22,886 nucleotides of DNA from positions 1-22,886 of the forward strand of contig JAQGDQ010001869.1 of the NCBI GenBank assembly GCA_030141605.1, written 5' to 3'. Of this stretch, positions 1,060 to 11,228 are shown one piece after another. The notes beneath the pieces were generated by a model. It searched no databases, was not told where the DNA came from, and saw only the letters and a program-made list of their open reading frames with translations. The translations under genes were made by a program, and so were the position numbers. Origin of the DNA: Tubiluchus corallicola (taxonomy: Eukaryota > Animalia > Priapulida). Numbering within the stretch: the first letter of the stretch is position 1; every line of letters begins with the position of its first letter.

Positions 1060-1185
1060 ATCTTTGATAAAAAACACCCTGTTTTTAGGTTGTTGGTGGA
1101 TGGAATCGCAAGGGCTCTTAACAGATCAAAAGAAGTTTATATTGAACAGCAAAGAAATGAGACAGACCAAGAAAAAGTTATACAG
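1060..1185 (+). CDS. Polycystin-1-like (PKD1L/REJ family) gene, exon A (first in window, phase 0-0), helical GAIN-A-like region
   Basis: Acceptor tttttctgtcttaccag and donor CAG|gtaaca. The 126-nt exon is open (IFDKKHPVFRLLVDGIARALNRSKEVYIEQQRNETDQEKVIQ) and joins exon B in frame. Confidence 0.8.
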
Positions 1186-1447
1186 GTAACATATTGTTGT
1201 TGTATTCATGAGTCAATGAATGTATTCTTCCTCAATACCCACTACTGCTATTGTTCTTATTATTTTGGGGAATCTTAGTAGCAGAGTGGGCAACTGTCGT
1301 GCATAGAAATTTTTGGACTATCGTCGAAGTCGCAAACTACCTGAAACCCTTTCTTTAGTGTTCTGAGAAATTTCTTCAATTTTATCACTGAAATATTTTA
1401 ATGCAAGCTCGTTTAGCCAAAACATTTTACTATTCATTTTTTCTCAG

Positions 1448-1598
1448 GCGAAAGACATCTCAGCGAATTCAGTGAAGCTCCTTGATGATGTAGCAGAGGC
1501 AATCAGCATCCATAAAGTCATAGCAGAAGAAGCAACTACTTTTTCAACCGACGTCGTGACACTTTCTGTAAAGCGAGAAAAGGTTTCTGTCTTAGGAG
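1448..1598 (+). CDS. Polycystin-1-like gene, exon B (phase 0-1)
   Basis: Acceptor ttttttctcag and donor G|gtactc. Encodes AKDISANSVKLLDDVAEAISIHKVIAEEATTFSTDVVTLSVKREKVSVLG, which resembles the PKD1L 'L......KV.GE.PT...T..I.L...R' GAIN segment. Confidence 0.85.
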
Positions 1599-2019
1599 GT
1601 ACTCAAAATATTTGTAAAACATAATTGTCTGGTTGCCTGGGTTTTCGTAATGATTCAGTTCAATTCTATTCCAATTTTTGAATCAAATTTTTGAATTCAA
1701 TTCGATCCAGTTGAATATCTTCCTTTGCGTTTTATTAAAAAATGCCAATACACCCTCTTTCTGCCTGCACTAAAAGACTTGGATTAAGGTGCACCAGTTA
1801 GTTTAATAACAAAGATGACTGAGTCATGACTGACTTGCATTTTTATAAGGCCAATTTTTTATAAGTATAAGATACTTATATCAAAGCCAGAATATAAATC
1901 AATAATAAAAATGTAAAAATGAATAATATACCCCCAGGCCTTATGATTGTTTATAGGGATGACTATTAATCCATTGAATAAATAAATAAATAAATAAATA
2001 CATATATCTCTAGATCTCT

Positions 2020-2236
2020 AGTGTCTCCAGATATTTAAAAAAAATAGTAATCAGCTTTCCGATTATGATATAAGTTTCATATAAGTTTAGGAAATATGCA
2101 TATACACAATAACTTATTCTATATATATATATATAATAGAATAAGTTATTGTGTATAAGTATATTTCCTAGACTGATATGAAACTTATATCATAATATGA
2201 ATGCTGATGACTATTTTTTAAATATCTAAAGACACT
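2020..2236. repeat. Foldback inverted repeat with arms of about 100 bp centred on (TA)n
   Basis: The left arm AGTGTCTCCAGATATTT...CACAATAACTTATTCTAT is the reverse complement of the right arm ATAGAATAAGTTATTGTG...AAATATCTAAAGACACT, with roughly 10% mismatch. Confidence 0.92.
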
Positions 2237-2428
2237 TGCCATTATGATCGTAAGTAAAAATAAGCATCATTTTAAAATAATTAGTATTAACGCAAAACAT
2301 TAATCAATGCAGTAATTAAATATATGATACTACAGTGTATTACTATATCGCAAAGAATCAAAGAATTACATTTCATTATAGATTATCGTAAAACAATATG
2401 CACAGCCTAGTTGTGTTTTTTATTTCAG

Positions 2429-2517
2429 ATTCACGAATAGAAATGAAAGGTATAGGATATTTTAAAATGCCTCCTGCAACAGTCTTTAAAAATGAAACTG
2501 ATTCACTAGGTGTGGAG
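2429..2517 (+). CDS. Polycystin-1-like gene, exon C (phase 1-0)
   Basis: Acceptor tttttatttcag and donor GAG|gtaagc. Encodes (D)SRIEMKGIGYFKMPPATVFKNETDSLGVE, with the 'G.F.LP' pattern seen in PKD1L GAIN domains. Confidence 0.85.
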
Positions 2518-3648
2518 GTAAGCTCAAAAATGTTATTCGTGGTTTTTTACCCTTTCATACCCGTTGTATCACTTAAATACGAGAATATTTTCTGCCTTTA
2601 AAATTTATAAAATTTTAAAATTGAAAGTTATTTGATATGTTAATAGTTATTTTGATTTAAGCCAATAACAATAGACTAAAATGGTGATAAAATGGCAAAC
2701 TAGAATATTTACAGAAGATAAAAAACTGCGCACGGTACAGTACTTTAGAGATGACTTTGTACAGATCAGCATAGCATGCATACTAAATGTCTTAAATACT
2801 GCCATGATGGCAATAATACATAGGTACTTTTTTTAGTTTTTGTTCCCCGCACAATAAGCTTCCATTGCAATATTTCGATTGCAGAAATATAATGTGAAGT
2901 ACATCTGTTTATCTTAGAAAAATTAAATGGATTGTTGCAAAAAACTAAGAAAAATTATTAGACCTACAATGTTTGCAGCCTAACAATAATAAATAAATTT
3001 AATTTACAGTATCACTTGTGTGAAATCAACTGATTCAGAAAACTCTAAATTTCCAGGTACAGCACTCCATACACTCTGGCCTCAAGGCTCTCCTATCTCT
3101 AAGAACAAATTCCTGTTAAAAGATAAAACGAGCTTAATTTGTGCTTAGCTGATCTATAGGTTTTTTCTGGAACTCTGTAGGCCATTCTCTTGAGCTGTAA
3201 CAAACAGTTGACCAATAAAATTGTGTGTACTATCGCGCAAGTGTAAACCATAGAAGCTTCTATAGGCCAAGTTAGAGTGCCTAAAAGCGGCGTGTTTTTA
3301 TTAATTTTATCAAAACAATCACTTATAAATGCTTAAACAAATAGCATGATTGGATAGCCGAGATTCTCCTGAATAGAACCGTACCTAATTTATAATCATT
3401 TAGTTATGTCTGTGCTCACACAGTAACAGAAAAGTCATAGGTCTTGTTAGACCCATTTTGAGTGGCACGGGCTTGAAGGAGTAAAGCTAATTTTTGCGTA
3501 TTAGTATTTTGGCTTTTTTATTGGAAAGTGGTTGAGCTTATCTGATTTTCACACGAGGAGTTATTACGTGGTTATAGAATTTTGGTGCCTGAAAACAGAA
3601 TTGATAAATTTAGCAGCCCCCAATAAAAATGAAGCTGATAATAATAAT

Positions 3649-4261
3649 TGGGGGTATATCAAACAATGAAGTTAATGCCGTTAAGGTAAAATGGAACACT
3701 GCTTATAGAAAAATATTCGATTTTAGACAAAATGAAAGCGTCAAATTGTTAATGTATTTTTGTGGCACAATGCCTGCGAATTATTTAATAGATAGTCGAA
3801 AATTAAACTTTATGAGAAAAATTGTAAATTCTTGCACATTGAGAATTCCAAAGCTATGCTACTATGTAAATAACAGTCAAGTAAATTTAAGATTTAAATA
3901 TGGTTGTACTGTAGATCTAAACGAAAATGTAAAATTAAAGGTTAAGAACTCATTTAAAGATTATGTTTTAAGATATCTATTATAGCTCCTTACAACACTG
4001 TATAATGTAATATAATTACAAGGAACTACAATGTGTGGTTATTATAAAGTTGAATTTCTGTAGATATGTTACTTTACTAATATCGCATTACCTGTTTTAC
4101 TAACATCTTTATCTTTGTAAACTGTATATTTTTATACGAAATAAATTCATAATAATAATAATAATAATAATAATAATAATAATAATAATAATAATAATAA
4201 TAATAATAATAATAATAATAATAATAATAATAATAATAATAATAATAATAATAATAATAAT
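3649..4261 (+). mobile_element. 5'-truncated non-LTR retrotransposon: ORF2 C-terminus, 3' UTR and (AAT)n tail
   Basis: ORF 3629-3985 contains WNTAYRKIF..RQNESVK.L.YFCG.MP..YLID.RKLNF, which resembles post-RT LINE ORF2 ends. It is followed by AATAAA at about 4140 and about 37 AAT units up to 4261. Confidence 0.7.
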
Positions 4262-9761: not shown

Positions 9762-9969
9762 ACGTAAGGTTTGTCAAGTGAATCTATTGCATAAATAATT
9801 CGTGTGCATAATTTACACTTACTAAAATTAGCTTTTTTGTTCTTAAATACCAACTCTGGTTTAATTCCACACAATCATTCTTGCAACAACCATCAAAGCC
9901 TTAGTTAATTTTGTTAAAGATTTGTTGTGCCTATGCGAAACTAATATTCCAATTCTGTCTTTACAACAG

Positions 9970-10117
9970 AAAGCACACTTTATAGCCTTGCCATACAGAC
10001 TGCTGATGTAAAGCATGCAGGAACTTTTGCAAGAGTCTCAATCCAGATTCATGGCAGTTATGGAGATACTGATCAAGTGCAGTTAGACAGCAGTTTGGAA
10101 AGTTTTGGACGTAAACG
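9970..10117 (+). CDS. Polycystin-1-like gene, exon G (phase 1-2): PLAT/LH2 domain, N-terminal part
   Basis: Acceptor tctttacaacag and donor CG|gtatgg. Encodes (K)STLYSLAIQTADVKHAGTFARVSIQIHGSYGDTDQVQLDSSLESFGRK, matching the PLAT consensus Y.V.V.T.D...AGT.A.V.I...G..G.T....L......F.R. Confidence 0.93.
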
Positions 10118-10230
10118 GTATGGTGATCCTGGTTTCACACAAACTATATCTGCACTTCTCAAACTTTTACCACGAATGAAACATTTGCATTAATTTTTTT
10201 TAAATGTAGGAGTCTGTCGTAGCTCAACAT

Positions 10231-10680
10231 TGAAAACAGATATTAATACTGATAATGATCTGCTTAATGTAAAATTGACTCCACAATGAAAACAGATATT
10301 AATACTGATAATGATCTGCTTAATTTAAAATTGACTCCACAATGAAAACAGATATTAATACTGATAATGATCTGCTTTAAGTAAAAATTGACTCCACAAT
10401 GAAAACAGATATTAATACTGATAATGATCTGCTTGATTTAAAATTGGCTCCACAATGAAAACAGATATTAATACTGATAATGATCTGCTTGATTTAAAAT
10501 TGGCTCCACGATGAAAACAGATATTAATACTGATAATGATCTGTTTGATTTAAAAATGGCTCGACAATGAAAACATATATTAATACTGATAATGATCTCA
10601 TTAATTTAAAATTGACTCCACAATGAAAACAGATATTAATACTGATAATGATCTGATTAATTTAAAGATGGCTAGACAAA
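10231..10680. repeat. 56-bp minisatellite, about 8 copies, inside a PLAT intron
   Basis: Unit TGAAAACAGATATTAATACTGATAATGATCTGCTTAATTTAAAATTGACTCCACAA, starting at 10231, 10287, 10343 and onward. Confidence 0.95.
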
Positions 10681-10724
10681 GAACCAAGATCTTGTTTATT
10701 ATTCTGGATTAACATTTCTTACAG

Positions 10725-10827
10725 ATTGGACAAGTTTAATTTAACAATGGCGCCAGTAGGAGATGTCAAATTCCTTAGTATATGGCACGATAACACAGGT
10801 TTGGGTCCAGCCTGGTTATTGGAAAAG
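10725..10827 (+). CDS. Polycystin-1-like gene, exon H (phase 2-0): PLAT/LH2 core
   Basis: Acceptor atttcttacag and donor AAG|gtaatt. Encodes (R)LDKFNLTMAPVGDVKFLSIWHDNTGLGPAWLLEK, containing the diagnostic IWHDN.G..P.W.L motif. Confidence 0.95.
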
Positions 10828-11107
10828 GTAATTGAACAAATTAGTATTTGTTTATAAAATGTTTTTTGTTCTTGCTTGGATTTTTTAATTAATTTTGCTA
10901 ACTTTTATTTCACAACCAAAGTGATATTCCTGTATATGTCCATATGTATATATATATATATATAGTCTTTGTTCTTTTCTTACACATCTTTATTATTGTT
11001 CAAGGTTCTTATATATGTTGACAAACGGGATTTTGCTAACATACATTTTACTCCCTATAAATTATATACGCCTATATATATATATTTTATATTCTTACAC
11101 ATCTAAG

Positions 11108-11228
11108 GTTCTTATATACGTTGATAAACTGGATTTCACCTGCCCCTGTATGACTTGGATGGAAGGAAACGTGTCATCTAATCTTCAAAAAGTTCCCTGC
11201 TTCCTTAGAGCCAACGACAGACCACCAG
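11108..11228 (+). CDS. Polycystin-1-like gene, exon I (phase 0-1): PLAT/LH2 C-terminal part; the gene continues past a donor site
   Basis: Acceptor cacatctaag and donor G|gtaaga. Encodes VLIYVDKLDFTCPCMTWMEGNVSSNLQKVPCFLRANDRPP, matching the PLAT end V.V......Y.FPC..WL. Confidence 0.88.

What the first reader, a model, noticed from the sequence alone, without database searches (positions are those of the whole stretch)
1060..11228. Polycystin-1-like protein with a non-canonical order: GAIN-type region, 30-Cys domain, then PLAT, with no GPS or TM helix in between
Seen: nine exons splice in consistent phases (0,1,0,1,0,1,2,0,1) into about 639 aa. GAIN-region motifs (NPFSW, H.F.V, RP..DF, YYVGI) run directly into a Cys-rich block and then a full PLAT domain. 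There is no C.W...W...GC...C.C.HL(T/S) GPS motif and no hydrophobic stretch of about 20 aa. Known: in PKD1, PKD1L1-3, PKDREJ and sea-urchin REJ proteins, PLAT follows GPS and TM1 and is cytoplasmic. Inference: this PLAT is either an extra extracellular copy inserted upstream of the GPS, or the gene encodes a rearranged or soluble polycystin derivative.
Basis: partly seen in the sequence, partly recalled or inferred. Interest (0 to 1): 0.85.

Follow-up and report, generated by a model that had tools for sequence, protein, structure and literature searches.

The report
Polycystin offshoot with grafted outside PLAT
In this invertebrate gene, the front part of a polycystin-1-type self-cleavage (GAIN) domain runs straight into a new 30-cysteine domain and then, by predicted splicing, into a lipid-binding-type PLAT domain with no cleavage site or membrane helix between them, so it likely makes a secreted polycystin offshoot that would cling to membranes from outside instead of crossing them.

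Summary
Observation confirmed. Nine AG..GT exons join in the stated phases into 639 stop-free residues. Residues 23-285 match the GAIN region of canonical polycystin-1-like (PKD1L) proteins: 37 bits against at most 9 for 1000 shuffles, with two shared phase-0 introns. The match stops at a hypervariable loop, one strand before the GPS. A 30-Cys, predicted helical block with no homologue found follows in the same exon, then PLAT. No GPS, TM1 or channel signal occurs anywhere in the window, and the 9128-9970 intron is mostly a MITE. New here: the PLAT looks imported. It scores as multi-PLAT/lipoxygenase type (80 vs 64 bits) and has phase-1 flanks, two sequons and an extra Cys. An antisense STE20-family kinase exon lies 1.25 kb downstream, so the gene likely ends there, nested in that gene's intron, as a secreted derivative (0.45). 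Main rival (0.33): GPS, TM and channel exons lie beyond the window. No RNA evidence was available. The scan had not noted this order before. Closest precedent: sea-urchin SpREJ10, which lacks GPS and TM.

The parts
1060..1185 (+). Exon A (aa 1-42), helical GAIN-A region; the gene continues upstream of the window's 43-bp array
   Evidence: its 3' intron (phase 0) falls at the same register as in L025/L020 and L048/L037
1448..1598 (+). Exon B, last GAIN-A helix and first GAIN-B strands
   Evidence: profile of model residues 22-125: 18.6 bits, 0 of 2000 shuffles as high
2429..2517 (+). Exon C, GAIN-B strands
   Evidence: its 3' intron (phase 0, 6 codons before NP[FY]) is shared with 3 of 3 reference gene/ORF pairs
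4292..4439 (+). Exon D, NPF.W motif segment
6939..7087 (+). Exon E, start of the GOLD-like beta-sandwich insert of the polycystin GAIN
8246..8425 (+). 5' part of exon F: rest of the GAIN insert up to the YYVG strand, where homology ends
8441..9055 (+). 30-Cys block (aa 287-491) in exon F; C-x3-C-x6-C periodicity, 8 sequons in aa 281-515, predicted helical bundle, no homologue found
   Evidence: no hit
9262..9761 (.). High-copy MITE with 16-bp terminal inverted repeats and an identical 8-bp target duplication (9254-9261, 9762-9769); fills most of the F-G intron
9970..10117 (+). Exon G, PLAT N-terminal part (phase 1 in)
   Evidence: PF01477 1-46; best PDB hit allene oxide synthase-lipoxygenase PLAT, E 1e-4
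10725..10827 (+). Exon H, PLAT middle with the WHDN motif
   Evidence: PF01477 50-82; polycystin-1 PLAT, E 0.002
11108..11228 (+). Exon I, PLAT C-terminal part with an extra Cys after the C..W motif; strong phase-1 donor
   Evidence: (leave-one-out donor score 9.1, highest of 9)
12163..12299 (+). Candidate terminal exon (45-codon tail and stop; AATAAA at 12347); weakly supported
   Evidence: acceptor score 1.9; true exons -2.0 to 8.2; against: 4 of 4 listed variants in X1 are non-synonymous
12482..12629 (-). First coding exon of a STE20-family kinase gene (myosin-III-like by recall), transcribed towards and across the polycystin exons
   Evidence: MAP4K1, E 1e-5; Pkinase 1-25; 2 of 2 listed X1 variants synonymous

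Best explanation
The gene is a descendant of a polycystin-1-like (PKD1L) receptor whose GAIN sequence breaks off in a variable loop and continues into a 30-cysteine domain and, by predicted splicing, a likely imported PLAT domain, and it likely ends soon after, giving a likely secreted protein that would attach to membranes through PLAT rather than through a transmembrane helix. Shown: PKD1L ancestry of aa 23-285, the in-exon fusion of GAIN to the Cys block, and the lack of any GPS, TM or channel signal in the window. Inferred: the F-G splice; an extracellular location (sequons, Cys spacing); import of the PLAT as a phase 1-1 exon module; an end at about 12.1-12.4 kb inside an intron of the antisense kinase gene; a signal peptide upstream. 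Mechanism (inferred): the upstream REJ/GAIN-derived stalk and the disulfide-laddered helical domain would display a recognition surface, and the PLAT sandwich would act as a peripheral anchor on a lipid surface or partner protein. The protein would neither self-cleave nor form a channel.
For: GAIN ancestry: BLASTP E 3e-9 and 4e-9 over about 260 aa to L020 and L029, both Pfam-typed REJ-GPS-PLAT-channel proteins; profile score 37.1 bits against a best of 9.1 in 1000 shuffles; two phase-0 introns at the same register; the reference region folds like adhesion-GPCR GAIN domains (CD97 Z 9.2, rmsd 4.2, 164 aligned; also CELSR1, LPHN3, BAI3). No downstream receptor part: GPS, TM1, post-PLAT and channel profiles give best E 1.2, 0.64, 0.32 and 4.4 over 951 six-frame ORFs, while the GPS profile finds 18 of 18 held-out reference loci at E below 1e-8; 0 of 131 plus-strand ORFs right of 11229 hit GPS, PLAT or polycystin families. 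The gene's eight introns are 262-2499 nt, yet 11.6 kb of window follows exon I. A kinase exon with 2 of 2 synonymous variants sits 1.25 kb downstream on the other strand. Extracellular: 16 sequons against 5.3 expected, 0 of 5000 shuffles as high; no CC, CxC or CxxC in the Cys block and four C-x3-C-x6-C units (p 0.001). Imported PLAT: 79.7 bits on the multi-PLAT profile against 64.1 on the PKD1L profile, whereas 23 of 23 held-out PKD1L PLATs prefer the PKD1L profile by 34-88 bits; the quick tree leaves it outside the 24-row PKD1L clade (SH-aLRT 99); a second Cys after C..W occurs in 0 of 36 PKD1L PLATs. Precedent for a GPS-less, TM-less, transcribed REJ gene: SpREJ10 (PMC1934368).
Against: The GPS supplies five strands integrated into the GAIN fold (PMC4810088), and one further strand of the insert is missing too. 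A conserved but truncated GAIN-B is therefore structurally awkward, which favours later exons. The Cys block starts exactly in a loop that already tolerates 15-74 aa and often carries two Cys and a Pro-Pro linker (17 of 24 each), and exon I ends in Pro-Pro at the strongest donor. The candidate last exon is weak (acceptor 1.9; 4 of 4 variants non-synonymous). The kinase gene's own intron is at least 12 kb if the assembly is right, so long introns are possible here. The reference PLATs are taxonomically narrow, the multi-PLAT profile comes from 13 of 17 repeats of one protein, the query sits on a long branch (2.75) and the careful tree did not finish. In the Cys exon 4 of 6 listed variants are non-synonymous, one of them Cys to Tyr.
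Confidence: 0.45

Rival explanations
1. A full-length PKD1L receptor: the Cys block and an extra extracellular PLAT are one insertion of about 350 aa in the variable loop of the GAIN insert domain. The missing strand, GPS, TM1, a second cytoplasmic PLAT and the channel are encoded beyond the window, after an intron of more than 11.6 kb that holds the kinase gene's 5' end, or on another contig if the assembly is misjoined at the 34-bp array (11504-12078).
For: The breakpoint falls in a loop that is 15-74 aa long in 24 references, with two Cys in 17 and Pro-Pro in 17. The upstream GAIN is as conserved (20-23% identity) as some references are to each other (15-30%). The GAIN fold needs the GPS strands (PMC4810088). 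Exon I ends in Pro-Pro at the strongest donor, and no convincing terminal exon was found. The PLAT looks foreign, so the gene's own PLAT could still lie downstream.
Against: No GPS, TM or channel exon in the next 11.6 kb, whereas the eight known introns are at most 2.5 kb. It needs two multi-exon genes to overlap head to head over more than 13 kb, which I judge rarer than nesting (own knowledge).
Confidence: 0.33
2. A recently truncated duplicate or decaying pseudogene: part of a full-length, insertion-bearing PKD1L gene was copied or broken next to the kinase gene, and this copy makes no useful protein.
For: The GAIN is structurally incomplete. 4 of 6 listed X1 variants in the Cys exon change the residue, one removing a Cys. 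There is a short duplication of exon I's 5' end at 11002-11033.
Against: All nine exons keep frame, phase and AG/GT signals over 639 codons with no stop. Six variants are too few to measure selection. The PLAT-exon contig differs by only 1 letter in 354.
Confidence: 0.15
3. The gene model is wrong at the F-G junction: exons A-F and G-I belong to different genes, or a GPS/TM exon hides between them.
For: No RNA confirms the junction. The F donor and G acceptor have modest leave-one-out scores (1.3 and -1.8). No X1 contig bridges the MITE.
Against: The phases match (1 to 1). About 500 of the intron's 841 nt are a MITE with identical target duplications on both sides, leaving flanks of about 125 and 200 nt. 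No in-phase internal exon candidate passed the filter and the GPS and TM1 profiles find nothing there. The GAIN-to-Cys fusion lies inside one exon and needs no splice.
Confidence: 0.07

Closest known systems
PKD1-like / REJ family (human PKD1, PKD1L1-3, PKDREJ; zebrafish Pkd1l; reference ORFs L020, L029, L035, L037)
   Same: GAIN-region sequence, motif order and two intron positions; carries a PLAT domain downstream of the GAIN region.
   Different: No last insert strand, GPS or TM1 before PLAT. A 205-aa 30-Cys block lies in the variable loop. The PLAT scores as a different subtype and lacks the polycystin post-PLAT segment. PMC1934368 states that the family's PLAT follows TM1 and is always intracellular; the rows of the PMC5318412 table that I saw list GPS before PLAT wherever a GPS is called.
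Sea-urchin SpREJ10 (PMC1934368)
   Same: A transcribed PKD1-family gene with neither GPS nor predicted TM helix.
   Different: The paper assigns PLAT only to proteins with a first TM, so SpREJ10 has none by its text; no Cys-rich block is described. Its figure could not be seen.
Multi-PLAT (LOXHD1-like, name recalled; L002, 17 Pfam PLAT repeats) and lipoxygenase PLAT domains
   Same: Best profile, BLAST and PDB matches of this PLAT; shares the T[GA]D, GD[TS] and PC..W motifs (12, 7 and 8 of 13 repeats; 14, 1 and 2 of 36 PKD1L PLATs).
   Different: Those domains are cytoplasmic (own knowledge). This one has two sequons and an extra C-terminal Cys and has Phe where the lipoxygenase has the Asp after AGT (its role as a calcium ligand is recalled).
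Adhesion-GPCR GAIN domains (CD97, CELSR1, latrophilin-3, BAI3)
   Same: The reference region that the query aligns to has this fold.
   Different: The polycystin version carries a GOLD-like sandwich insert (model residues 167-292). The query lacks the GPS half altogether within the window.

Membership tests
PKD1-like / REJ polycystins | GAIN-region homology upstream of the GPS | tested here: met
   reference fold; shared introns
PKD1-like / REJ polycystins | GPS motif between GAIN and PLAT | tested here: not met
   motif scan; profile; control 18 of 18
PKD1-like / REJ polycystins | TM1 immediately before PLAT | tested here: not met
   max KD19 1.32 against 2.4-2.9 in references; TM1 profile best E 0.64
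PKD1-like / REJ polycystins | PLAT of the polycystin subtype, followed by the post-PLAT segment | tested here: inconclusive
   PLAT present but prefers the multi-PLAT profile; post-PLAT profile finds nothing; references narrow, long branch, quick tree only
PKD1-like / REJ polycystins | REJ domain and signal peptide upstream | not testable with these tools
   the gene's 5' part lies left of the window; no genome is held; REJ profile finds nothing inside the window
PKD1-like / REJ polycystins | GPS, TM1-11 and channel domain further downstream | tested here: inconclusive
   absent from 11229-22886; DNA beyond the window not available
Complete GAIN domain (autoproteolytic) | Five GPS strands with the H-L-T/S cleavage site | tested here: not met
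   not in the 639 aa; requirement from PMC4810088 passages
PLAT/LH2 domain (PF01477) | Match along the profile | tested here: met
   positions 1-46 and 50-82 as separate exons, each below the gathering cut-off; joined domain 54-80 bits on local profiles
Known Cys-rich extracellular domain families | Sequence or fold match of the 30-Cys block | tested here: inconclusive
   no significant hit; model pLDDT 47 gives only generic helical bundles

The most novel reading that the evidence does not exclude
A full-length polycystin with PLAT domains on both sides of the membrane: a lipid-binding module and a new disulfide-rich helical domain are grafted into the GAIN domain itself. The receptor could grip a second membrane (another cell, a gamete or a vesicle) and pass the pull directly to its self-cleavage site and channel.
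Probability: 0.2. Interest if true: 0.8.

Novelty: new variant of a known kind. Interest (0 to 1): 0.5.

Why it matters
In the family papers read here, PLAT is the cytoplasmic signature that follows TM1. A polycystin-derived gene that puts a foreign PLAT and a new 30-Cys domain on the outside, inside a GAIN loop, shows that this loop can take whole domains. It gives one of two testable objects: a soluble polycystin ectodomain whose TM anchor is replaced by a peripheral one, or a receptor with a membrane-gripping module wired into its autoproteolysis domain. It also raises a direct structural question: can the front part of a GAIN domain fold without the GPS strands? It is one lineage-specific gene of unknown expression, so its general weight is limited until RNA is seen.

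Tried and rejected
No whole genome is held. No RNA holder was listed. X1 behaves as low-depth DNA (it covers introns) and X2 laid nothing on 8160-10220 and only repeat pieces on 12080-14020; this says nothing about expression. All three word-index protein searches found no scoring relative (exon F; exon G; exon H with flanks), nor did the 1.84-billion-protein search with exon F. ESM Atlas gave only weak leads (0.77 for exon F; 0.81 TED domain for exon D), rejected as chance level. PDB sequence searches with exons D, F and I gave nothing significant; a recalled likeness of the PLAT end to secreted lipases was therefore not confirmed. Fold searches with the Cys-block model gave only generic helical bundles. 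The idea that aa 484-497 is a remnant of the last strand and GPS start was tested and not supported (1410 of 2000 shuffles scored as high). A paralogue suggested by one X1 contig of depth 9 was dropped, because the kinase-exon contig has a similar depth (8.35). A search for further kinase or myosin exons on the minus strand found 0 of 109 ORFs (27 aa or more, low-complexity ones dropped) and no kinase motif left of 12482, but the known kinase exon was itself missed, so the test is weak. A putative plus-strand donor at 13730 was dropped because an X1 variant removes its G. Nine paper searches listed nothing whose title or abstract start describes this order; 'extracellular PLAT' occurred in none of the 4 papers listed. 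The library lacks most subscription journals, and no domain-architecture database could be queried.
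Full report
Observation. The window is AT-rich animal DNA with many tandem arrays. Nine plus-strand exons (1060-1185, 1448-1598, 2429-2517, 4292-4439, 6939-7087, 8246-9128, 9970-10117, 10725-10827, 11108-11228) have AG/GT ends, join in phases 0,1,0,1,0,1,2,0,1 and give 639 aa with no stop. Thirty Cys lie at aa 287-491. The highest 19-residue hydropathy is 1.32, and no GPS motif is present in the protein or in any frame of the window. Exons G and H match Pfam PLAT positions 1-46 and 50-82, each below the gathering score as a fragment. 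Their best PDB matches are a lipoxygenase PLAT and the polycystin-1 PLAT. The splicing is predicted: no RNA holder was listed.

Reference set. They gave 100 motif-bearing ORFs. Pfam types L020, L029 and L037 as REJ-GPS-PLAT-polycystin-channel proteins, L035 the same without REJ, L058 as PLAT only and L002 as a 17-PLAT protein. I did not determine their organisms; the tree shows sets of close paralogues, so the sample is narrow.

Is the N-terminal part GAIN? Yes. Query aa 23-285 aligns to L020 and L029 at E 3e-9 and 4e-9, 20-23% identity. A five-sequence profile gives 37.1 bits, against a best of 9.1 in 1000 shuffles and -1.6 for the reversed sequence. The A-B and C-D introns are phase 0 and fall at the same register as introns in the references (A-B in 2 pairs that reach that far, C-D in 3 of 3). 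An AlphaFold model of the L029 region from a 24-row alignment (pLDDT 67) matches adhesion-GPCR GAIN domains over model residues about 28-341 (CD97 Z 9.2, rmsd 4.2, 164 aligned; CELSR1 8.3; LPHN3 7.7; BAI3 7.6). Residues 167-292 separately match GOLD-type sandwiches (Foldseek rank 4 is BAI3, E 0.002). These Z values are middling, but several GAIN structures recur.

Where the homology breaks. The query follows the profile to the YYVG strand (model 263-272) and then stops. Profiles of the last insert strand plus first GPS half, and of the second GPS half, find nothing in any third of the protein. In 24 references the loop after that strand is 15-74 aa (median 58); 17 have two Cys, 18 a furin-like site and 17 Pro-Pro. 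The Cys block begins in this loop, in the same exon as the GAIN motifs, so that fusion needs no splice prediction.

The Cys block. It has no CC, CxC or CxxC and four C-x3-C-x6-C units (0.55 expected, p 0.001). Aa 281-515 hold 8 sequons (2.1 expected, p 0.0006); the whole protein has 16 (5.3 expected). A single-sequence model is all helix but of low confidence (pLDDT 47) and matches only generic bundles. I infer a disulfide-laddered extracellular helical domain with no relative found.

The F-G junction. Of the 841-nt intron about 500 nt are a high-copy MITE (X1 depth in the tens of thousands) with terminal inverted repeats and the same 8-bp target duplication on both sides (the script's right-hand slice is offset by one base). 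Matching duplications argue against a misjoin there. The flanks are about 125 and 200 nt and hold no in-phase exon candidate and no GPS or TM1 signal.

Origin of the PLAT. It scores 79.7 bits on a profile of 13 of L002's 17 repeats and 64.1 on 36 PKD1L PLATs (57.5-66.2 on ten size-matched subsamples). All 23 held-out PKD1L PLATs prefer the PKD1L profile by 34-88 bits. A quick tree (24 of the 36 PKD1L rows; the careful search did not finish) leaves the query outside the PKD1L clade (SH-aLRT 99), on a long branch of 2.75. It has three motifs typical of the multi-PLAT set, two sequons (2 of 36 PKD1L PLATs have two or more) and a second Cys after C..W (0 of 36; 2 of 13 in the multi-PLAT set). It is flanked by phase-1 introns, whereas the intron before PLAT is phase 0 in 3 of 3 references (one of them also allows a phase-1 cut). 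I infer import by exon shuffling. No divergent bilaterian PKD1L control was available.

Where does the gene end? GPS, TM1, post-PLAT, channel and REJ profiles find nothing among 951 six-frame ORFs (best E 1.2, 0.64, 0.32, 4.4, 3.2), while the GAIN-PLAT profile picks out exons H, G, B and D. The GPS profile detects 18 of 18 held-out loci, though these are close to the training set. Pfam finds no polycystin family in 131 plus-strand ORFs right of 11229 (24 aa or more, low-complexity ORFs dropped). At 12482-12629 on the minus strand lies the first coding exon of a STE20-family kinase (myosin-III-like by recall), with 2 of 2 listed variants synonymous. No further kinase exon was found to its left in the window (weak test). 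The polycystin exons therefore appear to lie in its intron. The simplest layout is nesting, with an end before 12480. A candidate last exon (12163-12299, AATAAA at 12347) is weak: acceptor score 1.9 and 4 of 4 variants non-synonymous. Against an early end stand the structural need for the five GPS strands (PMC4810088), the insertion-prone loop and the strong phase-1 donor after Pro-Pro.

How it likely works. Best reading (0.45): a secreted polycystin ectodomain derivative. The stalk and Cys-rich bundle would present a recognition surface, and the PLAT would serve as a peripheral anchor. Lipoxygenase PLAT domains bind membranes, some with calcium (PMC8740744), but one acidic residue of the lipoxygenase motif is Phe here, so calcium dependence is uncertain. 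It would not self-cleave or conduct ions. Rivals: full-length receptor with the insertion and its membrane part beyond the window (0.33); truncated or decaying duplicate (0.15; 4 of 6 Cys-exon variants non-synonymous); wrong junction (0.07). The first three share the core result: an extracellular Cys domain and PLAT grafted into the GAIN loop.

Comparison with print. PMC1934368 (parts 1-2 of 4 and passages read) says PLAT follows TM1 and is always intracellular, and that SpREJ10 alone lacks GPS and TM. PMC5318412 (passages) lists fish PKD1-like architectures with GPS before PLAT where a GPS is called. PMC4810088 and PMC8740744 were seen as passages; PMC12716839 passages held nothing relevant. 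All other papers were seen only as search listings, none describing this order. No supplements were opened, and no architecture database was available, so absence from print is not established. Earlier scan notes hold nothing near this place or like exon F; other polycystin variants exist in other genomes.

Verdict. A real feature and a new variant of a known kind. It descends from PKD1L but fails the GPS and TM1 membership tests within the window. Interest 0.5, limited by the lack of RNA and by the unknown 3' end.

Noticed in passing
window 12482-12629 (-), with a possible 5' UTR exon ending near 13346: 5' end of a STE20-family (myosin-III-like by recall) kinase gene whose next intron spans at least 12 kb and appears to host the polycystin exons; a 28-bp triple repeat at 13494-13577 lies near its likely start.
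   Followed up: partly
window 9262-9761: High-copy MITE with 16-bp terminal inverted repeats and an 8-bp target duplication (hAT-like by recall).
   Followed up: yes
window 12746-13070: A second high-copy interspersed repeat, seen by depth in X1 and X2, in the kinase gene's first intron.
   Followed up: no
window 11002-11033: A 91%-identical duplicate of the acceptor and first codons of exon I, 103 nt upstream of the real one; its frame runs into a stop, so it may be a decoy acceptor.
   Followed up: partly
L029:4842-5864 (-), model m5b2333e729cf residues 167-292: The canonical polycystin GAIN-B appears to carry a GOLD/PPC-like beta-sandwich insert just before the GPS; one paper search listed no title or abstract start that says so.
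   Followed up: partly
Alignment A2 (24 reference rows): The loop before the GPS carries a furin-like site in 18 of 24 and two Cys in 17 of 24 reference PKD1L sequences, suggesting a second processing site next to the GPS.
   Followed up: no
L058:580-2370 (+): A divergent PKD1L-like ORF whose GPS region lacks the H-L-T/S site and has no Pfam GPS hit; possibly non-cleaving.
   Followed up: no
window 3-1001, 10223-10673, 11504-12078, 14794-15276, 15633-16401, 19333-19956: Long, well-resolved tandem arrays (43, 56, 34, 53, 30 and 2-bp units). The 34-bp array sits between the last PLAT exon and the kinase exon and is the one place where a misjoin would change the reading.
   Followed up: no
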